From IMG/VR virus record IMGVR_UViG_2576861092_000008: a stretch of DNA of 11,644 nucleotides; one strand, given 5' to 3'. The stretch's first letter is position 1; each line of letters begins with the position of its first letter. Origin of the DNA: a virus (lineage: Duplodnaviria; Heunggongvirae; Uroviricota; Caudoviricetes). Positions 909 to 11,644 of the stretch are shown here, piece by piece. A program made the position numbers and the translations under genes. The notes under the pieces were generated by a model that saw only the letters and a list, made by a program, of their open reading frames with translations, had not been told where the DNA came from and ran no database searches.

Positions 909-1606
909 TGCAGGATATCCGGCAGGAAACACTGAATGAATGCACCCGTGCGGAGCAGTCGGCCAGCGTGGTGCTCTGGGAAATCGATCTGACAGAGGTC
1001 GGTGGAGAACGTTATTTTTTCTGTAATGAGCAGAACGAAAAAGGTGAGCCGGTCACCTGGCAGGGGAGGCAGTATCAGGCGTATCCCATTCAGGGGAGCG
1101 GTTTTGAACTGAATGGCAAAGGCACCAGTACGCGGCCCACGCTGGCAGTCTCTAACCTGTACGGCATGGTCACCGGTATGGTGGAAGATATGCAGAGTCT
1201 GGTCGGCGGAACGGTGGTCCGGCGTAAGGTTTACGCCCGTTTTCTGGATGCGGTGAACTTCGTCAACGGAAACAGAGACGCCGATCCGGAGCAGGAGGTG
1301 ATCAGCCGCTGGCGCATCGAGCAGTGCAGCGAACTGAGCGCGGTGAGTGCCTCCTTTGTACTGTCCACGCCGACGGAAACGGATGGCGCTGTTTTTCCGG
1401 GGCGTATCATGCTGGCCAACACCTGCACCTGGACCTATCGCGGTGATGAGTGCGGTTATCACGGTCCGGCAGTCGCGGATGAATATGACCAGCCGACGTC
1501 CGATATCACGAAGGATAAATGCAGCAAATGCCTGAGCGGCTGTAAGTTTCGCAATAACGTCGGCAACTTTGGCGGCTTCCTTTCCATTAACAAACTTTCG
1601 CAGTAA
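908..1606 (+). CDS. L: Minor tail protein L (tail tip assembly, Fe-S cluster protein)
   Basis: 232-aa ORF, same length as lambda gpL. C-terminal cysteine cluster (CTWTYRGDECGY ... DKCSKCLSGC) is consistent with the [4Fe-4S] site described for gpL. Position between M and K. Confidence 0.92.
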   Translation: MQDIRQETLNECTRAEQSASVVLWEIDLTEVGGERYFFCNEQNEKGEPVTWQGRQYQAYPIQGSGFELNGKGTSTRPTLAVSNLYGMVTGMVEDMQSLVGGTVVRRKVYARFLDAVNFVNGNRDADPEQEVISRWRIEQCSELSAVSASFVLSTPTETDGAVFPGRIMLANTCTWTYRGDECGYHGPAVADEYDQPTSDITKDKCSKCLSGCKFRNNVGNFGGFLSINKLSQ

Positions 1607-1610
1607 TCCC

Positions 1611-2354
1611 ATGACAGAGACAGAATCAGCGATTCTGGCGCACGCCCGGCGATGTGCGCCAGCGGAGTCGTGCGGCTTCGTGGTAAGCACGCCGGAGGGG
1701 GAAAGATATTTCCCCTGCGTGAATATCTCCGGTGAGCGGGAGGCGTATTTCCGGATGGCTCCGGAGGACTGGCTGCAGGCAGAGATGCAGGGTGAGATTG
1801 TGGCGCTGGTCCACAGCCACCCCGGTGGTCTGCCCTGGCTGAGTGAGGCTGACCGGCGGCTGCAGGTGCAGAGCGATTTGCCGTGGTGGCTGGTCTGCCG
1901 GGGGGCGATTCACAAGTTCCGCTGTGTGCCGCATCTCACCGGGCGGCGCTTTGAGTACGGGGTGACGGACTGTTACACACTGTTCCGGGATGCTTACCAT
2001 CTGGCGGGGATTGAGATGCCGGATTTTCATCGCGGGGATGACTGGTGGCGTCACGGTCAGAATCTCTATCTTGACAATATGGAGGCTACTGGTTTTTACC
2101 GTGTCGCACTGACAGAGGCGCAGCCGGGCGATGTGCTGCTGTGCTGTTTTGGTTCATCGGTGCCGAATCACGCCGCCATTTACTGCGGCGACGGTGAGCT
2201 GCTGCACCATATTCCTGAACAACTGAGTAAACGAGAGAGGTATACCGACAAATGGCAGCGACGCACACACTCCCTCTGGCGTCACCGGGAATGGCACGCA
2301 TCTGCCTTTACGGGGATTTGCAACGATTTGGCCGCCGCATCGACCTTCGTGTGA
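1611..2354 (+). CDS. K: Tail tip assembly protein K (JAMM/MPN metalloprotease-like domain plus NlpC/P60 domain)
   Basis: ATG at 1611 lies 5 nt after the L stop (MTETESAILAH...). JAMM-type motif HSHPGG...SEAD in the N-terminal half; Cys/His/His NlpC/P60-like residues (DCYTLF ... NHAAIYCGDGELLHH) in the C-terminal half. The ORF-track start at 1569 overlaps L and is less likely. An internal Met at 1755 would give the 199-aa length I recall for the older lambda annotation, but would truncate the MPN domain. Confidence 0.88.
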   Translation: MTETESAILAHARRCAPAESCGFVVSTPEGERYFPCVNISGEREAYFRMAPEDWLQAEMQGEIVALVHSHPGGLPWLSEADRRLQVQSDLPWWLVCRGAIHKFRCVPHLTGRRFEYGVTDCYTLFRDAYHLAGIEMPDFHRGDDWWRHGQNLYLDNMEATGFYRVALTEAQPGDVLLCCFGSSVPNHAAIYCGDGELLHHIPEQLSKRERYTDKWQRRTHSLWRHREWHASAFTGICNDLAAASTFV

Positions 2355-2893
2355 AAACGGGGGCTGAAGCCATCCGGGCACTGGCCACACAGCTCCCGGC
2401 GTTTCGTCAGAAACTGAGCGATGGCTGGTATCAGGTACGGATTGCCGGGCGGGATGCAGGAGAAACCGAATTATCATCCCGTCTTAATGAGCCGCTGGCA
2501 AATGGTGCCGTGATCCACATCGTGCCGCGTCTTGCGGGAGCAAAAAGTGGCGGTGTGTTTCAGGCGGTGCTGGGTGCGGCGTTGATTGCTACGGCAATCT
2601 GGATGCCGGGGATCAGTATCGCTTTCAGTGACATTCTCTTTTCAATGGGTGCGGCGATGACGCTTGGTGGTGTGGCGCAGATGCTGGCACCGAAAGCCAG
2701 AACTCCCCGTACACAGACAACGGATAACGGCAAACAGAACACCTATTTCTCCTCACTGGATAACATGGTTGCCCAGGGCAATGTCCTGCCTGTTCTGTAC
2801 GGTGAAATGCGCGTGGGGTCACGTGTGGCATCTCAGGAGATCAGCACGGCAGATGAAGGGGATGGTGGTCAGGTTGTGGTAATTGGGCGGTAA
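2252..2893 (+). CDS. I: Tail tip assembly protein I (ubiquitin-like N-terminus, hydrophobic C-terminal region)
   Basis: 213-aa ORF MAATHTLPLASPGMARICLYGDLQRFGRR... with an in-frame stop at 2228-2230 just upstream, so 2252 is the first possible start. GAGAGAGG at 2232-2240 is a plausible RBS. Overlaps the 3' end of K in a different frame, as in lambda. C-terminus ...EGDGGQVVVIGR. Confidence 0.9.
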   Translation: MAATHTLPLASPGMARICLYGDLQRFGRRIDLRVKTGAEAIRALATQLPAFRQKLSDGWYQVRIAGRDAGETELSSRLNEPLANGAVIHIVPRLAGAKSGGVFQAVLGAALIATAIWMPGISIAFSDILFSMGAAMTLGGVAQMLAPKARTPRTQTTDNGKQNTYFSSLDNMVAQGNVLPVLYGEMRVGSRVASQEISTADEGDGGQVVVIGR

Positions 2894-2966
2894 TATTATT
2901 TTACTCATGTTCTAACTGATTTAATATTTATATCGAACACTGATAATTATTCTATTGGTTAGCTAT

Positions 2967-3305
2967 ATGAACAAAACGATTTTATTCTGCACGATTATTG
3001 CCTTAACAGGATGTAAATCTTTGGATTACGTAAAATCCGGAAAACCTGTAATGGAAGGTAATTCATTAAAAAATATTGATGAATTGTCAGGCTGCATATC
3101 CAGACAATGGGCTGGTAATGGAACACCTATAACATCCCTTCCTATTGAGAATGGGGTAAGCCTTTTAGTTCCACAGGCTATGGGGGGATATGATGTTGTG
3201 CTTGATATCAAAAAAGCAGGAAATGGCAGTAGTTTTACTCTTTATGAACGTGTACCAGCATTAACGCCAAAAATTTTTGCTGATAGTGTTAATGCATGTA
3301 AATAA
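2967..3305 (+). CDS. Predicted lipoprotein of unknown function (moron inserted between I and J; candidate outer-membrane lipoprotein)
   Basis: ORF lying in a sharply AT-rich segment (2894-3330) between I and J. N-terminus MNKTILFCTIIALTGC is a signal peptide with lipobox L-T-G-C; the +2 residue is Lys, not Asp, so outer-membrane sorting is expected. Mature part is about 96 aa with two further Cys. Followed by a hairpin terminator. Start is either ATG 2967 or an upstream TTG at 2955; no strong Shine-Dalgarno. Confidence 0.65.
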   Translation: MNKTILFCTIIALTGCKSLDYVKSGKPVMEGNSLKNIDELSGCISRQWAGNGTPITSLPIENGVSLLVPQAMGGYDVVLDIKKAGNGSSFTLYERVPALTPKIFADSVNACK

Positions 3306-3329
3306 TAGTTAATCCTGTCGTAACTCATG

Positions 3330-3357
3330 AGCCGCCTTTTGGGCGGCTTTGTTGTTT
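3330..3357 (+). terminator. Rho-independent terminator downstream of the lipoprotein moron
   Basis: Inverted repeat AGCCGCC (3330-3336) / GGCGGCT (3342-3348) with a 5-nt loop, followed by the T-rich run TTGTTGTTT. Lies 14 nt upstream of the J start codon. Confidence 0.6.
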
Positions 3358-3371
3358 ATGGAGTGTGAGGA

Positions 3372-6300
3372 ATGGGTAAAGGAAGCAGTAAGGGGCATAC
3401 CCCGCGCGAAGCGAGGGACAACCTGAAGTCCACGCAGCTGCTGAGTGTGATCGATGCCATCAGCGAAGGGCCGGTTGAAGGTCCGGTGGACGGATTAAAA
3501 AGCGTGCTGCTGAACAGTACGCCGGTGCTGGACAGTGAGGGGAATACCAATATATCCGGTGTCACGGTGGTGTTCCGGGCAGGTGAGCAGGAGCAGACAC
3601 CGCCGGAGGGATTTGAATCCTCCGGCTCCGAGACGGTGCTGGGTACGGAAGTGAAATATGACACGCCGATCACCCGGACCATCACGTCGGCAAACATCGA
3701 CCGTCTGCGCTTTACCTTCGGTGTGCAGGCACTGGTGGAAACCACCTCAAAGGGGGACAGGAATCCATCGGAAGTCCGCCTGCTGGTTCAGATACAGCGT
3801 AACGGTGGCTGGGTGACGGAAAAAGACATCACCATTAAGGGCAAAACCACCTCGCAGTATCTGGCCTCGGTGGTGGTGGATAACCTGCCGCCGCGCCCGT
3901 TTAATATCCGGATGCGCAGGATGACGCCGGACAGCACCACAGACCAGTTGCAGAACAAAACGCTCTGGTCGTCATACACCGAAATCATCGATGTGAAACA
4001 GTGCTACCCGAACACGGCACTGGTTGGCGTGCAGGTGGACTCGGAGCAGTTCGGCAGCCAGCAGGTGAGCCGTAATTATCATCTTCGCGGGCGCATTCTG
4101 CAGGTGCCGTCGAACTATAACCCGCAGACGCGGCAATACAGCGGTATCTGGGACGGAACGTTAAAACCGGCATACAGCAACAACATGGCCTGGTGTCTGT
4201 GGGATATGCTGACCCATCCGCGCTACGGCATGGGGAAACGTCTTGGTGCGGCGGATGTGGATAAATGGGCGCTGTATGTCATCGGCCAGAATTGCGACCA
4301 GTCGGTGCCGGACGGCTTTGGCGGCACGGAGCCGCGCATCACCTGTAACGCTTACCTGACCACACAGCGCAAGGCGTGGGATGTGCTCAGTGATTTCTGC
4401 TCGGCGATGCGCTGTATGCCGGTATGGAACGGGCAGACGCTGACGTTCGTGCAGGACCGACCATCAGATAAGGTGTGGACCTATAACCGCAGTAATGTGG
4501 TGATGCCGGATGATGGCGCGCCGTTCCGCTACAGTTTCAGCGCCCTGAAGGACCGCCATAATGCCGTTGAGGTGAACTGGACTGACCCGGATAACGGCTG
4601 GGAAACGGCAACAGAGCTTGTGGAGGACACGCAGGCCATTGCCCGTTACGGTCGTAACGTCACGAAGATGGATGCCTTTGGCTGTACCAGCCGGGGGCAG
4701 GCACACAGAGCCGGGCTGTGGCTGATTAAAACGGAGCTGCTGGAAACGCAGACCGTGGATTTCAGCGTGGGCGCAGAAGGGCTTCGCCATGTACCGGGCG
4801 ATGTCATTGAAATCTGCGATGATGACTATGCGGGTATCAGCACCGGTGGTCGTGTGCTGGCGGTGAACAGCCAGACCCGGACGCTGACGCTCGACCGTGA
4901 AATCACGCTGCCATCCTCCGGTACCACGCTGATAAGCCTGGTTGACGGGCAGGGGAGTCCGGTCAGCGTGGAGGTTCAGTCCGTCACCGACGGCGTGAAG
5001 GTGAAAGTGAGCCGTGTTCCTGACGGCGTTGCTGAATACAGCGTATGGGGGCTGAAGCTGCCGACGTTGCGCCAGCGCCTGTTCCGCTGCGTGAGTATCC
5101 GTGAGAACGACGACGGCACGTATGCCATCACCGCCGTGCAGCATGTACCGGAAAAAGAGGCCATCGTGGATAACGGGGCGCACTTTGACGGCGACCAGAG
5201 CGGCACGGTGAATGGTGTCACGCCGCCAGCGGTGCAGCACCTGACTGCCGAAGTCACCGCAGACAGCGGGGAGTATCAGGTGCTGGCGCGATGGGACACA
5301 CCGAAGGTGGTGAAGGGCGTGAGCTTCCTGCTCCGTCTGACCGTAACAGCGGACGACGGCAGTGAGCGGCTGGTCAGCACGGCCCGGACGACGGAAACCA
5401 CATACCGCTTCACGCAACTGGCGCTGGGGCGTTACACGCTGACAGTCCGGGCGGTAAATGCGTGGGGGCAGCAGGGCGATCCGGCATCGGTATCGTTCCG
5501 GATTGCGGCACCGGCAGCGCCTGTCACTATTGAACTGATACCAGGGTATTTTCAGATAACAGCGGTCCCGAAACTGGCTGTATATGACCCGACGGTGCAG
5601 TTTGAGTTCTGGTTCTCGGAAAAGCGGATTATCGATATCAGGCAGGTTGAAACCAGCGCGCGTTATCTTGGTACGGCGCTGTACTGGATAGCCGCCAGTA
5701 GCAATATTAAGCCGGGTTATGATTATTACTTTTATATCCGCAGCGTGAACACCGTTGGTAAATCGGCATTCGTGGAGGCCGTCGGTCGGGCGAGCGATGA
5801 TGCGGAAGGTTACCTGGATTTTTTCAAAGGAGAAATCGGGAAAACACATCTGGCCCAGGAGTTGTGGACGCAGATTGATAACGGTCAGCTTGCGCCGGAC
5901 CTGGCTGAAATCAGGACGTCCATTACGAATGTCAGCAATGAAATCACGCAGACCGTCAATAAAAAACTGGAAGACCAGAGTGCGGCAATCCAGCAGATAC
6001 AGAAAGTTCAGGTTGATACAAATAATAACCTGAACAGCATGTGGGCCGTGAAACTGCAGCAGATGAAGGACGGACGCCTTTATATTGCGGGTATCGGTGC
6101 CGGTATTGAGAACACCCCTGACGGCATGCAGAGTCAGGTGCTTCTGGCTGCTGACCGGATTGCGATGATTAATCCTGCGAATGGCAACACAAAGCCGATG
6201 TTTGTTGGTCAGGGCGATCAGATATTCATGAACGACGTGTTCCTGAAACGCCTGACGGCTCCGACCATTACCAGCGGCGGTAATCCTCCGGCATTTTCCC

Positions 6301-6851
6301 TGACACCGGACGGGCGGCTGACGGCGAAAAATGCCGATATCAGCGGTAACGTGAATGCGAACTCCGGGACGCTCAACAACGTCACGATTAACGAGAACTG
6401 TCGGGTTCTGGGAAAATTGTCCGCCAACCAGATTGAAGGCGATCTCGTTAAAACAGTGGGCAAAGCTTTCCCCCGGGACTCCCGTGCACCGGAACGGTGG
6501 CCATCAGGGACCATCACCGTCAGGGTTTATGACGATCAGCCGTTTGACCGGCAGATTGTTATTCCGGCGGTGGCATTCAGCGGCGCTAAACATGAGCGGG
6601 AGAATAACGATATTTATTCGTCATGCCGCCTGATAGTACGGAAAAACGGTGCTGAAATTTATAACCGTACCGCGCTGGATAATACGCTGATTTACAGTGG
6701 TGTTATTGATATGCCAGCTGGTCGCGGCCACATGACGCTGGAGTTTTCGGTGTCAGCATGGCTGGTGAATAACTGGTATCCCACAGCAAGTATCAGCGAT
6801 TTGCTGGTTGTGGTGATGAAGAAAGCCACCGCAGGCATCAGTATCAGCTGA
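3372..6851 (+). CDS. J: Tail tip / central tail fibre protein J (host specificity protein)
   Basis: 1159-aa [27 protein letters not shown]..., preceded by a GAGG RBS. Size and order match lambda gpJ (which I recall as 1132 aa). C-terminus ...[35 protein letters not shown] resembles the lambda J receptor-binding end as I remember it. Confidence 0.95.
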
Positions 6852-6918: not shown

Positions 6919-7518
6919 ATGCGTAAAGTTTGTGCAGTCATTTTGTCCGCAGCCATCTGTCTGTCCGTATCCGGTGCGCCTGCATGGGCGTCTGAACATC
7001 AGTTCACACTGAGCGCGGGGTATCTTCATGCCCGTACGAACGCTCCCGGCAGTGATAATCTGAACGGGATTAACGTGAAATACCGTTATGAGTTTACGGA
7101 CGCGCTGGGGCTGATTACGTCCTTCAGTTATGCCAATGCTGAGGATGAGCAAAAAACGCACTACAGCGATACCCGCTGGCATGAAGATTCCGTGCGTAAC
7201 CGCTGGTTCAGCGTGATGGCGGGGCCGTCTGTACGCGTGAATGAATGGTTCAGCGCGTATTCGATGGCGGGTGTGGCTTACAGCCGTGTGTCGACTTTCT
7301 CCGGGGATTATCTCCGCGTAACTGACAACAAGGGGAAAACGCACGATGTGCTGACCGGAAGTGATGACGGTCGCCACAGCAACACGTCTCTGGCGTGGGG
7401 GGCTGGCGTGCAGTTTAACCCGACCGAATCCGTGACCATTGACCTTGCTTATGAAGGTTCCGGTAGTGGCGACTGGCGAACGGATGCATTTATTGTTGGT
7501 ATCGGATACCGTTTCTGA
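6919..7518 (+). CDS. lom: Outer-membrane protein Lom (Ail/OmpX/PagC family beta-barrel), lysogenic-conversion moron
   Basis: 199-aa ORF with signal peptide MRKVCAVILSAAICLSVSGAPAWA and C-terminal ...VGIGYRF ending in aromatic Phe, typical of outer-membrane beta-barrels. GAGAGG RBS 6 nt upstream. Position after J matches lambda lom. Confidence 0.92.
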   Translation: MRKVCAVILSAAICLSVSGAPAWASEHQFTLSAGYLHARTNAPGSDNLNGINVKYRYEFTDALGLITSFSYANAEDEQKTHYSDTRWHEDSVRNRWFSVMAGPSVRVNEWFSAYSMAGVAYSRVSTFSGDYLRVTDNKGKTHDVLTGSDDGRHSNTSLAWGAGVQFNPTESVTIDLAYEGSGSGDWRTDAFIVGIGYRF

Positions 7519-7622
7519 CAACAGACGCCGATTTATCTTCTGTAAATATTGTTATGATACGCAGGTTCATCCACTTTATGGGGTGAACTGCGTTTGAGTA
7601 AACGTACAGTTACACTGTTCTG

Positions 7623-7650
7623 AAGCCCGTGGGTTCTGGCGGGCTTTTTT
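7623..7650 (+). terminator. Rho-independent terminator downstream of lom
   Basis: Stem AAGCCCG (7623-7629) / CGGGCTT (7640-7646) with a 10-nt loop, then a T-run ending at 7650. Lies just upstream of the stf RBS (GGGGTG) and ATG 7662. Confidence 0.6.
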
Positions 7651-7661
7651 GTGGGGTGAAT

Positions 7662-10600
7662 ATGGCAGTAAAGATTTCAGGTGTACTGAAAGACGGCACA
7701 GGAAAACCGGTACAGAACTGCACAATCCAGCTGAAAGCAAAACGTAACAGCACCACGGTGGTGGTGAACACGCTGGCCTCAGAAAATCCGGATGAAGCCG
7801 GGCGTTACAGTATGGACGTTGAGTACGGTCAGTACAGCGTTATTCTGTTGGTGGAAGGATTCCCGCCGTCACATGCCGGGACCATCACCGTGTATGAAGA
7901 TTCCCGACCCGGTACGCTGAATGATTTTCTCGGTGCCATGACGGAGGATGATGCCCGTCCTGAGGCACTGCGCCGTTTTGAACTGATGGTGGAAGAGGTG
8001 GCGCGTAACGCGTCCGCGGTGGCACAGAACACGGCAGCCGCGAAGAAGTCAGCCAGCGATGCCGGCACATCAGCACGTGAGGCGGCAACCCATGCGACTG
8101 ATGCTGCAGGCTCAGCACGCGCAGCCAGCACGTCAGCCGGACAGGCCGCGTCGTCGGCTCAGTCAGCATCTTCCAGCGCAGGAACGGCATCAACAAAGGC
8201 CAGTGAAGCATCGAAAAGTGCTGCTGCTGCAGAGTCCTCAAAAAGCGCGGCAGCTACCAGTGCCGCTGCGGCGAAAACGTCAGAAACGAATGCGGCAGCG
8301 TCACAACAATCAGCAGCCACTTCTGCATCCGCCGCGACCACGAAGGCGTCAGAAGCAGCCACCTCAGCACGGGATGCGGCGGCCTCAAAAGAGGCAGCGA
8401 AATCATCAGAAACGAATGCATCATCAAGTGCCAGTAGTGCAGCTTCCTCGGCAACGGCGGCAGGAAATTCCGCGAAGGCGGCAAAGACGTCCGAGACGAA
8501 CGCCAGGTCTTCTGAAACGGCAGCGGGACAGAGTGCCTCGGCTGCGGCAGGCTCAAAAACAGCGGCTGCGTCGTCTGCCAGTGCCGCGTCAACAAGTGCC
8601 GGGCAGGCCTCAGCCAGTGCCACCGCCGCCGGAAAATCGGCAGAAAGCGCCGCATCATCCGCTTCAACAGCCACAACGAAGGCTGGCAAAGCCACTGAAC
8701 AGGCCAGTGCAGCAGCAAGGTCTGCTTCCGCAGCGAAGACATCCGAGACGAACGCGAAAGCGTCGGAAACCAGCGCAGAATCCTCAAAAACGGCTGCCGC
8801 ATCGTCCGCCAGTTCGGCGGCGTCATCGGCATCATCGGCGTCTGCTTCAAAAGATGAGGCGACCAGACAAGCGTCCGCAGCGAAGGGCAGCGCCACGACA
8901 GCATCCACGAAGGCGACAGAGGCAGCTGGCAGTGCGACGGCGGCAGCACAGAGCAAAAGTACGGCGGAATCCGCGGCAACGCGCGCCGAGACAGCGGCAA
9001 AACGGGCAGAGGATATTGCATCCGCCGTGGCGCTTGAGGATGCAAGTACGACGAAAAAGGGGATAGTACAGCTCAGCAGTGCGACCAACAGTACGTCTGA
9101 AACGCTGGCGGCAACGCCAAAGGCAGTAAAATCAGCCTATGACAATGCAGAGAAACGTCTGCAGAAAGACCAGAACGGCGCTGATATACCCGATAAGGGA
9201 CGCTTCCTGAACAACATTAACGCGGTCAGTAAAACAGACTTTGCTGATAAGCGTGGTATGCGTTATGTGCGGGTTAACGCTCCTGCAGGTGCAACATCTG
9301 GAAAATATTACCCTGTTGTTGTTATGCGTTCTGCTGGCTCAGTAAGCGAACTGGCATCAAGGGTCATTATCACCACGGCAACGCGAACCGCAGGCGATCC
9401 GATGAATAACTGCGAGTTTAACGGATTTGTTATGCCTGGTGGCTGGACTGACAGGGGGCGTTATGCTTATGGAATGTTCTGGCAATATCAAAACAATGAA
9501 CGAGCCATCCACTCAATAATGATGAGTAATAAGGGCGATGATTTGCGCTCTGTGTTCTATGTTGATGGCGCTGCTTTCCCTGTTTTTGCGTTTATCGAAG
9601 ATGGCCTGTCAATATCCGCACCTGGTGCTGATCTCGTTGTTAATGATACGACCTATAAGTTTGGGGCAACAAATCCGGCGACTGAATGTATCGCGGCGGA
9701 CGTTATCCTTGATTTTAAGAGTGGGCGTGGTTTTTATGAGTCTCATTCGTTAATCGTTAACGATAACTTGTCGTGCAAAAAACTTTTTGCCACAGACGAA
9801 ATTGTAGCGCGTGGTGGTAATCAGATTCGAATGATAGGTGGGGAGTATGGTGCATTATGGCGTAATGATGGCGCTAAAACTCACCTGCTGCTTACCAATC
9901 AAGGTGATGTTTATGGTGGCTGGAATACATTAAGACCGTTTGCTATTGATAACGCAACCGGCGAACTGGTTATTGGAACCAAACTGTCCGCAAGTCTGAA
10001 CGGTAATGCATTAACAGCAACAAAGCTGCAAACGCCAAGACGGGTTTCTGGTGTTGAGTTTGATGGTTCCAAAGATATTACTTTAACCGCCGCGCATGTG
10101 GCTGCTTTTGCCAGAAGGGCAACGGATACATATGCCGATGCGGATGGTGGCGTTCCCTGGAATGCCGAATCAGGCGCTTACAATGTCACCCGCTCTGGCG
10201 ACAGCTATATTCTGGTTAACTTCTATACCGGAGTCGGAAGTTGCCGGACCTTGCAGATGAAGGCACATTACAGAAATGGAGGTCTGTTCTACCGTTCCTC
10301 AAGAGATGGCTATGGTTTTGAGGAAGACTGGGCAGAAGTTTATACCTCGAAAAATCTTCCACCAGAAAGCTACCCAGTCGGCGCACCAATCCCGTGGCCA
10401 TCAGATACCGTTCCGTCTGGTTATGCCCTGATGCAGGGGCAGGCTTTTGACAAATCTGCATACCCGAAACTTGCAGCGGCTTATCCGTCAGGCGTGATCC
10501 CTGATATGCGTGGCTGGACGATTAAGGGCAAACCTGCCAGTGGTCGGGCCGTATTGTCTCAGGAACAGGACGGCATTAAATCGCATACCCACAGCGCCAG

Positions 10601-11060
10601 CGCATCCAGTACGGATTTGGGGACGAAAACCACATCGTCGTTTGATTACGGCACTAAATCCACGAATAACACTGGTGCGCATACCCATAGTTTAAGTGGC
10701 AGCACGAATGCAGCTGGTAATCACAGCCATAGAGATGGCCGTCGATTTAACCCCAGTGTTTTTAAAGATACTTATCAATATGGTTATACAAGCTCAGGTC
10801 AAAATACCTGGGGTGTACAAGGCTCAGTAGGTATGTCTACGGGGTGGTTAGCTAATACCAGTACAGATGGTAATCATAGCCACTCACTGTCCGGCACAGC
10901 AGCATCTGCAGGTGCACACGCGCATACTGTCGGTATTGGTGCTCATACGCACTCCGTTGCGATTGGTTCACATGGACACACCATCACCGTTAACGCTGCT
11001 GGTAACGCGGAAAACACCGTCAAAAACATCGCATTTAACTATATTGTGAGGCTTGCATAA
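7662..11060 (+). CDS. stf: Side tail fibre protein Stf (intact, 1132 aa; mosaic)
   Basis: ATG 7662 gives [26 protein letters not shown]..., the lambda Stf (orf401) N-terminus as I recall it. Contains a long Ala/Ser/Thr-rich repeat region, a lower-GC central module, and a His-rich C-terminus ([27 protein letters not shown]) ending ...[11 protein letters not shown]. The GTG at 7629 used by the ORF track lies inside the terminator hairpin and is rejected. Confidence 0.9.
8011..9010 (+). repeat. Ala/Ser/Thr-rich degenerate tandem repeat region within stf (coding low-complexity)
   Basis: Motif A-K-[TS]-S-E-T-N-A recurs with codon starts at 8271, 8397, 8481 and 8733, spacings of 126, 84 and 252 nt, all multiples of 42 nt. 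The high GC and low complexity generate long spurious ORFs in other frames on both strands. Confidence 0.7.
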
Positions 11061-11644
11061 TGGCATTCAGAATGAGTGAACAACCACGGACCATAAAAAT
11101 TTATAATCTGCTGGCCGGAACTAATGGATTTATTGGTGAAGGTGATGCATATATTCCGCCTCATACAGGTCTGCCAGCAAACAGTACCGATATTGCACCG
11201 CCAGATATTCCGGCAGGCTTCGTGGCTGTTTTCAACAGTGATGAGTCATCGTGGCATCTCGTTGAAGATCATCGGGGTAAAACGGTTTATGACGTGGCTT
11301 CCGGCGACGCGTTATTTATTTCTGAACTCGGTCCGTTACCGGAAAATGTTACCTGGTTATCGCCGGAAGGAGAGTTTCAGAAGTGGAACGGCACAGCCTG
11401 GGTGAAGGATACGGAAGCAGAAAAACTGTTCCGGATCCGGGAGGCGGAAGAAATAAAAAACAACCTGATGCAGGTAGCCAGTGAGCATATTGCGCCGCTT
11501 CAGGATGCTGCAGATCTGGAAATTGCAACGGAGGAAGAAATCTCGTTGCTGGAAGCATGGAAAAAGTATCGGGTATTGCTGAACCGTGTTGATACGTCAA
11601 CTTCACAGGATATTGAATGGCCAACAGTACCCATTATCGAATAG
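11060..11644 (+). CDS. tfa: Tail fibre assembly protein (chaperone for Stf)
   Basis: 194-aa [25 protein letters not shown]..., same length and near-identical sequence to lambda Tfa as I recall it. Its ATG overlaps the stf stop (TAATG), indicating translational coupling. Stop TAG at 11642-11644. Confidence 0.92.

What the first reader, a model, noticed from the sequence alone, without database searches (positions are those of the whole stretch)
9100..10370. Lower-GC central module in Stf suggests a swapped receptor-recognition cassette
Between the GC-rich repeat region and the conserved His-rich C-terminus, the stf sequence becomes noticeably more AT-rich and encodes a globular-looking segment (…[26 protein letters not shown] … [38 protein letters not shown]…) that I do not recognise from lambda Stf. 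Tail fibre genes are known to be mosaic, with exchangeable specificity modules, so this is likely a horizontally exchanged domain that determines secondary-receptor or glycan specificity.
Basis: partly seen in the sequence, partly recalled or inferred. Interest (0 to 1): 0.55.

Follow-up and report, generated by a model that had tools for sequence, protein, structure and literature searches.

The report
StfR-type shaft module in stf
The AT-richer middle of this prophage side-tail-fibre gene is a real, horizontally exchanged block, but it is the well-known middle of E. coli K-12 StfR and looks like fibre shaft, while the receptor-choosing cassette is a short hypervariable tip further downstream.

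Summary
Window 9100-10370 is the lowest-GC 1271-nt stretch of the window (0.471 against 0.542). Homology to lambda stf stops at 9131 and resumes at 10380. About 416 aa here replace about 147 aa of lambda Stf, the part Yu et al. call hinge plus distal coiled coil.

The block is not new. The gene is an allele of E. coli K-12 Rac prophage stfR (97% DNA identity up to 10700). The block occurs in 2270 of 5426 complete E. coli genomes and, at 98% identity, in at least one P2-like prophage fibre.

It is a chain of fibre domains:
- a Mu S/P2 H-like linker;
- a beta-rich "domain X" with no Pfam family and no solved structure;
- a T4 Gp34_trimer domain;
- a T-even gp37 motif;
- a Mu S'-like domain.

It is under strong purifying selection (dN/dS 0.05). 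The same block pairs with at least five different tips.

The C-terminal 229 aa align end to end with the T4 gp37 receptor-binding tip (2XGF). Its head insert (10701-10874) is hypervariable and is the only part that differs from K-12 StfR.

"Swapped module" is supported. "Receptor-recognition cassette" is not supported but not excluded. Ordinary, low interest.

The parts
7659..11060 (+). stf: side tail fibre gene, 1133 aa from the ATG at 7659 (the mechanical ORF starts at GTG 7629). It is an allele of E. coli K-12 Rac prophage stfR.
   Evidence: 94.9% aa identity over the full length to StfR b1372, and 97.3% DNA identity over 7612-10700. It lies between lom (6919-7518) and tfa.
7662..8063 (+). 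Tail-attachment domain (Pfam phage_tail_N), aa 2-135, lambda-like.
   Evidence: PF08400, 239 bits against a cut-off of 26.6. 80% aa identity to lambda Stf 1-352.
8067..9050 (+). It corresponds to lambda's proximal coiled coil but is about 106 aa longer.
   Evidence: GC2 0.79 and GC 0.61. No DNA tandem repeat. Aligns with lambda orf-401. Domain name from PMC12617516.
9051..9131 (+). Left junction: the conserved fibre motif '[26 protein letters not shown]'. This is the last stretch shared with lambda Stf (lambda aa 374-385).
   Evidence: Lambda DNA homology ends at 9130. Motif positions. PF03406 (Phage_fiber_2) is precomputed for the homologues. The next 115 nt match P2-like H genes at 88-90%.
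9132..10379 (+). Central StfR-type module (aa 492-907, 416 aa). It replaces lambda Stf aa 386-532, which is the hinge plus distal coiled coil.
   Evidence: No lambda homology. Present in 2270 of 5426 E. coli genomes. dN/dS 0.05 against K-12 StfR. GC3 0.41.
9132..9251 (+). Linker '[40 protein letters not shown]', like Mu S and P2 H.
   Evidence: Segment aa 1-42 matches Mu S residues 131-172 of 5YVQ/8JU3. DNA match to P2-like H genes.
9252..9776 (+). Domain X (aa 532-706): a beta-rich globular fibre domain with no Pfam family and no solved structure.
9777..9995 (+). Gp34_trimer-type domain (aa 707-779; the Pfam envelope starts at aa 664).
   Evidence: PF21446, 91.4 bits against a cut-off of 27. 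Matches T4 gp34 (4UXE, 5NXF, 9X3R) and Mu S 268-336 (5YVQ).
9996..10100 (+). Motif '[31 protein letters not shown]', shared with T-even gp37 and other fibres.
   Evidence: tblastn gives 58-77% identity over aa 1-31 of the query in T6, RB32 and Yersinia T4-like gp37 genes.
10101..10370 (+). Mu S'-like domain (aa 815-904). In some alleles an unrelated domain replaces it.
   Evidence: Segment aa 333-421 matches 8JU3 residues 321-409 (E 1e-20 for that stretch). 42-54% identity in Felix O1-like and P2-like fibres. Alternative domain in P0080, P0084 and P0085.
10371..11057 (+). T4 gp37-type receptor-binding tip (collar, His-rich needle, head), lambda-like.
   Evidence: Aligns end to end with 2XGF, E 9.6e-85. 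Collar PF07484, 44.5 bits against a cut-off of 24, at aa 908-955. 72% aa identity to lambda Stf 530-774.
10701..10874 (+). Hypervariable head insert of the tip: the most probable receptor-specificity cassette.
   Evidence: It is the only part of stf without DNA homology to K-12 stfR. Identity among 120 homologues is 46-64% here against 92% or more elsewhere. It diverges from T4 gp37 exactly at this place. GC3 0.28-0.30. This allele is in 1144 of 5426 genomes.
11060..11644 (+). tfa: tail fibre assembly protein (runs to the window end).
   Evidence: PF02413 Caudo_TAP, 143 bits. 98% DNA identity to tfaR and 92% to lambda tfa.

Best explanation
Window 9132-10379 encodes a 416-aa, multi-domain shaft module of an StfR-type side tail fibre. 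In lambda Stf the same position holds the hinge and distal coiled coil (aa 386-532).

The module is a string of trimeric-fibre building blocks:
- a Mu S/P2 H-like linker;
- an uncharacterised beta-rich 'domain X';
- a T4 Gp34_trimer domain;
- a T-even gp37 motif;
- a Mu S'-like domain.

It was exchanged by recombination at two conserved motifs that flank it: the '[12 protein letters not shown]' fibre repeat and the 'GAPIPWPSD' collar. Fibre genes of lambdoid siphoviruses and P2-like myoviruses share it.

Inferred role: a longer and knobbier distal shaft or knee that sets fibre length and geometry and presents the C-terminal tip. Receptor specificity is set mainly by the T4 gp37-type tip, above all its head insert at 10701-10874, which folds with Tfa.

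Shown: the identity, boundaries, domain content, distribution, conservation and mosaicism of the module.
Inferred: that it is structural and not receptor-binding.
For: Boundaries. Lambda homology stops at 9130 and resumes at 10380. Ur-lambda has an unrelated 147 aa there. Those lambda residues are the hinge (394-422) and distal coiled coil (423-525) in PMC12617516. Engineered lambda STF chimeras were fused at R393 and S528, the same two junctions (PMC11338833; positions checked).

Identity. The gene has 97.3% DNA identity to K-12 stfR over 7612-10700. The block is in 2270 of 5426 E. coli genomes, against 731 for the lambda-type middle.

Domain content. Gp34_trimer is above the Pfam cut-off. 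Mu S, Mu S' and T4 gp34 structures match by sequence. T4 gp34 is named the long-tail fiber proximal subunit in those entries. Domain X occurs mid-fibre in 9g, P2-like, T5-like, rV5-like and Aeromonas T4-like gp36 proteins.

Conservation. There are 12 synonymous and 2 non-synonymous differences against K-12 StfR, dN/dS 0.05. Identity across the 120 closest homologues is 92-98%.

Independence from the tip. The same module pairs with at least five different tips, and both domain-X alleles pair with several tips.

Tip. The C-terminal 229 aa align end to end with 2XGF. Only the head diverges, is hypervariable and differs from K-12 StfR.

Exchange between virus types. P0045 has a P2 gpH N-terminus plus this module at 98% identity, next to a gene carrying the P2 gpI (Tail_P2_I) domain fused to a Cox domain, in a degraded prophage.
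Against: No experiment or trimer structure for StfR was found, so 'structural only' rests on homology and conservation.

Domain X is globular, has no assigned function, and keeps invariant or near-invariant polar residues (N69 and E100 invariant, D84 in 90% or more). A lateral binding site is therefore possible.

Domain X exists in at least two alleles of about 60% identity, and the Mu S'-like domain can be replaced by another domain. That is also what one would expect of a secondary specificity element.

The Mu S' match lies in the part of 8JU3 where S' no longer resembles S. In Mu, from my own knowledge, that is the host-range-variable half.

The Sf14 paper notes receptor-binding-like domains in the middle of a fibre (PMC11821841).

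The 120 homologues were selected by similarity to this block, so its apparent invariance there is partly circular. The dN/dS value rests on a single close pair.
Confidence: 0.7

Rival explanations
1. The central module is a second receptor-recognition cassette. Domain X and/or the Mu S'-like domain bind a surface glycan or protein laterally and set secondary-receptor specificity, alongside the tip.
For: Domain X is a compact globular domain, unassigned in Pfam and PDB, with invariant or near-invariant polar residues.

Diverged alleles of domain X exist, and the S'-like domain can be replaced by another domain.

Mid-fibre receptor-binding-like domains have been proposed in Sf14.
Against: dN/dS is 0.05 and the block is 92-98% identical among relatives, while the tip is hypervariable.

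The same module pairs with at least five tips.

Its recognisable parts are homologous to T4 gp34 (proximal half-fibre) and to Aeromonas gp36, neither of which is a receptor-binding tip.

The fold matches are below any convincing level. There is no beta-helix depolymerase fold and no Pfam enzyme or lectin domain.
Confidence: 0.15
2. Compositional artefact. The GC drop says nothing about origin and only reflects the end of the Ala/Ser/Thr-rich shaft. On this reading the block is simply the ancestral Stf middle, and lambda's short version is the derived state.
For: Most of the drop is in GC2, 0.79 to 0.47. GC3 of the block equals that of the stf 3' end and tfa (p 0.54). The StfR-type middle is about three times as common as the lambda-type middle in E. 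coli genomes. The direction of replacement cannot be read from two sequences.
Against: GC3 also drops significantly against the 5' part of stf (p 4e-4) and against J (p 2e-21).

Whatever the composition, exchange is shown directly:
- identical modules lie behind lambda-type and P2-type N-termini;
- sub-domains reassort;
- the homology breaks sharply at conserved motifs.
Confidence: 0.1
3. The module's main role is mechanical. It supplies a different knee or hinge that changes fibre reach and angle, and it was selected for adsorption kinetics on encapsulated or O-antigen-bearing cells. On this reading it is more than a passive spacer.
For: It replaces exactly the lambda residues that include the hinge, 394-422. 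It adds 269 aa to the distal half. Domain X recurs in L-shaped T5-type fibres and next to the knee protein gp35 in an Aeromonas T4-like phage.
Against: No structural data exist for the trimer. The AF2 monomer model of the whole segment was unusable (pLDDT 35). The position of any hinge in StfR is unknown.
Confidence: 0.05

Closest known systems
E. coli K-12 Rac prophage StfR (b1372, 1120 aa)
   Same: Collinear over the full length: 94.9% aa identity, and 97.3% DNA identity over 7612-10700, which includes the whole flagged block. Same lom-stf-tfa context.
   Different: The head insert of the tip (10701-10874) is replaced by an unrelated sequence (about 58 aa here, about 45 aa in K-12). In K-12 the gene sits in a defective prophage. 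Here a complete lambda-like tail module is upstream.
Phage lambda (Ur-lambda) Stf, 774 aa
   Same: N-terminal attachment domain and proximal shaft (80% aa identity over 1-352). gp37-type tip (72% over 530-774). Tfa (92% DNA identity). Same gene order.
   Different: Lambda aa 386-532 (hinge plus distal coiled coil, PMC12617516) has no similarity to the 416-aa module here. The proximal shaft is about 106 aa longer here. The head insert differs.
Mu tail fibres S (5YVQ) and S' (8JU3)
   Same: The linker after the fibre repeat matches Mu S 131-172. The Gp34_trimer-type domain matches Mu S 268-336. The last domain matches S' 321-409.
   Different: In Mu these domains lead to a C-terminal tip that works with the U/U' chaperones. 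Here they are followed by a T4 gp37/lambda-type collar-needle-head tip with a Tfa of the Caudo_TAP family. Domain X is absent from the Mu matches.
T4 gp34 proximal half-fibre, C-terminal trimerisation domain (PF21446; 4UXE, 5NXF)
   Same: Pfam hit of 91 bits. Sequence match over aa 707-778.
   Different: Only one domain is shared. gp34 is a proximal, non-receptor-binding subunit of a two-part fibre. Here the domain lies in a single-chain siphovirus side fibre.
Phage 9g (Nonagvirus) side tail fibre, and P2-like gpH variants (P22H4; prophage protein P0045)
   Same: 9g Stf is collinear over the full length (49% aa identity; domain X 63%). P22H4 H carries domain X and the S'-like domain (50-57%). 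P0045 carries the same module at 98% identity behind a P2 gpH N-terminus.
   Different: P22H4 lacks the Gp34_trimer domain and the gp37-type tip. The N-terminal anchors belong to other families (PF12571 against PF08400).
Engineered lambda STF chimeras (Broedel et al. 2024, PMC11338833)
   Same: Heterologous fibre parts were grafted onto lambda Stf at R393 and S528. These are the two points where this natural gene departs from and rejoins lambda.
   Different: The engineered chimeras replace everything distal to the junction, including the receptor-binding end. Here only the stretch between the two junctions differs, and the lambda-type tip is kept.

Membership tests
StfR-type prophage side tail fibre (E. 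coli K-12 b1372) | Full-length collinear homology to StfR | tested here: met
   One blastp alignment, aa 2-1133 against 1-1120, 94.9% identity. DNA 97.3% (7612-10700) and 98.3% (10875-11626).
StfR-type prophage side tail fibre (E. coli K-12 b1372) | Lambdoid context: lom upstream, tfa downstream, phage_tail_N anchor | tested here: met
   Ail_Lom 416 bits, Caudo_TAP 143 bits, phage_tail_N 239 bits. K-12 gene order lomR-stfR-tfaR.
Lambda Stf hinge and distal coiled coil (aa 394-525) | Sequence homology to lambda aa 386-532 | tested here: not met
   No tblastn, blastp or blastn alignment between window aa 501-904 and lambda, even at E=10.
Pfam PF21446 Gp34_trimer | Score above the Pfam gathering cut-off | tested here: met
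   91.4 bits against 27, aa 664-763. T4 gp34 chains at E about 3e-11.
T4 gp37-type receptor-binding tip (collar-needle-head) | Collar domain and end-to-end alignment with the solved tip, including the His-x-His repeats | tested here: met
   PF07484, 44.5 bits against 24. 2XGF E 9.6e-85 over query 1-229. HTHS/HSHS/HAHT/HGHT motifs are aligned.
T4 gp37-type receptor-binding tip (collar-needle-head) | Iron coordination by the His motifs, and binding of OmpC or LPS by the head | not testable with these tools
   Needs metal analysis, a structure and adsorption assays. OmpC binding is reported for lambda Stf and T4 gp37 only (PMC12617516).
Tailspike or depolymerase (right-handed beta-helix enzymes) | Beta-helix catalytic fold or an enzyme family match in the flagged block | tested here: not met
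Carbohydrate-binding module or lectin | Significant fold or sequence match to a CBM or lectin family | tested here: inconclusive
Mu S' distal region (8JU3) | Homology to S' residues 321-409 | tested here: met
   77.8 bits for the stretch, segment aa 333-421.
Mu S' distal region (8JU3) | Same position at the fibre end, working with a U'-type chaperone | tested here: not met
   Here the domain is internal and followed by 229 aa of gp37-type tip. The downstream gene is a lambda-type Tfa, 92% DNA identity to lambda tfa.

The most novel reading that the evidence does not exclude
Domain X (window 9252-9776) may be more than a shaft knob. It defines a small, uncharacterised family of mid-fibre domains: 137 cluster representatives among 1.84 billion proteins, no Pfam family and no solved structure. 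It is found in lambdoid, P2-like, T5-like, rV5-like and T4-like fibres. It could be a functional element, such as a lateral glycan-binding site or the hinge that gives such fibres their kink. In that case StfR-type fibres would carry two independent recognition or positioning elements.
Probability: 0.15. Interest if true: 0.45.

Novelty: already known. Interest (0 to 1): 0.18.

Why it matters
It matters little as a discovery. The block is the middle of a protein already annotated in E. coli K-12 and present in over 40% of complete E. coli genomes. Mosaic tail-fibre genes are textbook knowledge.

There are three practical points:
- Annotation and phage-engineering work should look for host-range determinants of StfR-type fibres in the head insert (10701-10874) plus Tfa, not in the large middle block.
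- The natural junctions coincide with the R393 and S528 fusion points used to build chimeric lambda fibres. This supports them as safe grafting sites.
- One 175-aa fibre domain in the block still lacks a Pfam family and a structure.

Tried and rejected
1. The AF2 model of the whole 424-aa segment, built on a shallow alignment of 15 close relatives, gave pLDDT 35. It was unusable and was not fold-searched.

2. A profile of distant domain-X homologues (A3) put to the search for homologous proteins returned only 17 short E. coli fragments. The 50%-representative library supplied the diversity for the second model instead.

3. The PDB sequence search with a domain-X profile gave only chance nanobody hits at E 0.04-0.8.

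4. The afdb50 fold library was not available. BFVD was used in its place.

5. TRF found no DNA tandem repeats in the 'repeat region'.

6. A literature search for the phages that carry the block (mEp332, PhiR34_1, Chlobot, ev099) found nothing on their fibres. The Mu(-) fibre paper for 8JU3 is not held. The DT57C structure resolves only the LtfA N-terminus, so it says nothing about domain X.

7. PhiR30_1, which shares only the ends of the block, has a fragmented stf annotation and was not analysed further.

8. A depolymerase in the block was considered and rejected: there is no enzyme domain and no beta-helix.

9. The idea that the GC drop alone proves foreign origin was rejected, because most of the drop is in GC2.
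Full report
**Context.** The window is a lambda-like tail module. It holds L (908-1606), K, I, a small low-GC ORF, J (3372-6851), lom (6919-7518), a 1133-aa stf (ATG 7659 to 11060) and tfa (11060 to the end). Pfam finds four families in Stf:
- phage_tail_N at aa 2-135;
- Gp34_trimer at aa 664-763;
- Collar at aa 908-955;
- a sub-threshold Phage_fiber repeat.

**Observation.**
- The flagged stretch has GC 0.471 against 0.542 for the window. It is essentially the lowest-GC 1271-nt stretch of the window (profile).
- Splitting by codon position shows that most of the step at about 9100 is amino-acid composition. GC2 falls from 0.79 in the Ala/Ser/Thr-rich shaft to 0.47.
- GC3 also falls, from 0.53 to 0.41 (p 4e-4).
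- The low GC3 continues through the 3' end of stf (0.44) and tfa (0.43). It is lowest in the tip (0.28-0.30). Upstream tail genes have GC3 0.57-0.68.
- So the composition step marks the start of the whole distal fibre region, not this block alone.
DNA homology to lambda ends at 9130 and resumes at 10380.
- I rebuilt Ur-lambda Stf (774 aa) across the PaPa frameshift. It has an unrelated 147 aa there, 'VVMDETNRKAPLDSPALTG...GAGENSAFPA'.

**What the block is.**
- The gene is an allele of E. coli K-12 Rac prophage stfR. It shares 94.9% aa identity over the full length and 97.3% DNA identity from 7612 to 10700. There is no homology from 10701 to 10874, and then 98.3% identity to the end, including tfaR.
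- The block occurs in 2270 of 5426 complete E. coli genomes, near full length in 1307. It is also in phages Kati, mEp332, ev099, 2H10, Chlobot and PhiR34_1 at 99%.
- The lambda-type middle occurs in only 731 genomes.

**Anatomy, from N to C** (coordinates):
- A linker after the conserved fibre repeat matches Mu S residues 131-172. At the DNA level it matches P2-like H genes at 88-90%.
- Domain X (aa 532-706) has no Pfam or PDB sequence match, even with a profile.
- A Gp34_trimer-type domain (aa 707-779) matches T4 gp34 and Mu S 268-336.
- The motif '[13 protein letters not shown]...[10 protein letters not shown]' is shared with T-even gp37.
- A domain matches Mu S' residues 321-409 of 8JU3. 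It also occurs in Felix O1-like and P2-like fibres.

**Domain X.**
- A full HMMER scan of 1.84 billion representatives finds only 137 proteins at E<=1e-3. In the long ones the domain is always internal, with a median of 426 residues following it and a minimum of 76.
- In phage genomes it lies in the 9g side tail fibre (63% identity), a P2-like gpH (57%), a Warwickvirus protein, the BF23 L-shaped fibre, an rV5-like lateral fibre and Aeromonas phage 25 gp36.
- With 40 diverse sequences AF2 gives a confident all-beta model (pLDDT 87.8, pTM 0.83).
- Against predicted viral structures, the named hits among the 15 at E<=1e-3 are all phage tail or tail-fibre proteins.
- So it is a fibre-specific domain with no assigned function. 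It is not a beta-helix depolymerase.

**Mosaicism.**
- The left edge lies right after '...[12 protein letters not shown]' and the right edge right before 'GAPIPWPSD'. Both motifs are conserved across fibre families.
- In lambda numbering the neighbouring landmarks are MDETNR (388-393) and GAGENS (523-528). These are the R393 and S528 fusion points used for engineered lambda STF chimeras (PMC11338833).
- The StfR block therefore replaces the hinge plus distal shaft, not the receptor-binding domain.
- The same block at 98-99% identity follows a P2 gpH-type N-terminus in P0022 and P0045. P0045 lies next to a gene carrying the P2 gpI (Tail_P2_I) domain in a degraded P2-like prophage.
- Inside the block, the stretch holding domain X and Gp34_trimer has a second allele of about 60-70% identity (P0092, P0095, P0104, P0114). 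The S'-like domain is replaced by another domain in P0080, P0084 and P0085. These variants combine freely.

**Where specificity most likely lies.**
- The last 229 aa align end to end with the crystal structure of the T4 gp37 receptor-binding tip (2XGF, E 9.6e-85). All His-x-His needle motifs are aligned. Only the head insert diverges.
- Among the 120 closest homologues every 20-aa bin of the block is 91-98% identical. Bins covering aa 1021-1080 are 46-64% identical and are flanked by 96-100%.
- At least five unrelated head sequences occur behind the same central block. Both domain-X alleles occur with several heads.
- Against K-12 StfR the block has 12 synonymous and 2 non-synonymous differences (dN/dS 0.05). 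The head is replaced outright.
- The window's head allele is in 1144 genomes.

**Interpretation.**
- The best-supported reading is a horizontally exchanged structural module. It forms a longer, knobbier distal shaft or knee that presents a lambda/T4-type tip.
- The short head insert plus Tfa would be the specificity cassette.
- This rests on homology, position and conservation. No experiment on StfR was found.
- Caveat: the homologue set was chosen by similarity to the block, and the dN/dS value comes from one close pair.
- Caveat: domain X is unassigned and keeps invariant or near-invariant polar residues.
- Caveat: allelic variation of domain X and of the S'-like domain would also fit a secondary binding role, and mid-fibre binding domains have been proposed elsewhere (PMC11821841).
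- I give the structural reading 0.7, lateral binding 0.15, and the remainder to a mainly mechanical hinge role or to vertical descent with lambda as the derived form.

**Novelty.** The finding is already known in substance. The block is that of K-12 StfR, its domains are partly in Pfam, and fibre mosaicism between lambdoid, P2, Mu and T-even phages is long established (cited in PMC3945230). The only loose end is domain X.

Noticed in passing
window 2955-3305 (+), inside the low-GC island at about 2850-3350: A 116-aa ORF lies between tail genes I and J in a stretch of GC 0.34-0.38 (GC3 0.25). It starts with a lipoprotein signal, 'MNKTILFCTIIALTGC'. It has no Pfam family and matches phrog_914 (unknown function). 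It has no megablast match in the phage collection but is present in 337 of 5426 complete E. coli genomes as 'hypothetical protein'. An otherwise near-identical prophage (E. coli EC77, L003) lacks it. It looks like a moron, and a superinfection-exclusion lipoprotein is a guess I did not test.
   Followed up: partly
window 10701-10874: The head insert of the gp37-type tip is the only part of stf with no DNA homology to K-12 stfR. It has the lowest GC3 of the gene (0.28-0.30). At least five unrelated versions occur behind identical flanks. This is the real swapped specificity cassette of the gene.
   Followed up: yes
window 9132 and 10379 (lambda Stf aa 385/386 and 532/533): The natural homology breakpoints with lambda lie within a few residues of R393 and S528, the fusion points chosen for engineered chimeric lambda side fibres.
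   Followed up: yes
window 5551-6851 (3' third of J): GC falls to about 0.50 and DNA identity to lambda J drops from 95% (3341-5868) to 77% or nothing after 5868. The receptor-binding C-terminus of J is therefore also a non-lambda allele.
   Followed up: no
window 8067-9098: The Ala/Ser/Thr-rich proximal shaft is about 106 aa longer than lambda's. It has no DNA tandem repeats by TRF despite its repetitive protein sequence. AT skew is strongly positive there (0.3-0.5).
   Followed up: partly
L010 (phage PhiR30_1, PV340558.1) 1064-4457: The stf of this deposited phage is annotated as three separate 'side tail fiber' CDSs, and only the ends of the central block match the window. This could be frameshifts or a different central allele, and I did not resolve it.
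   Followed up: no
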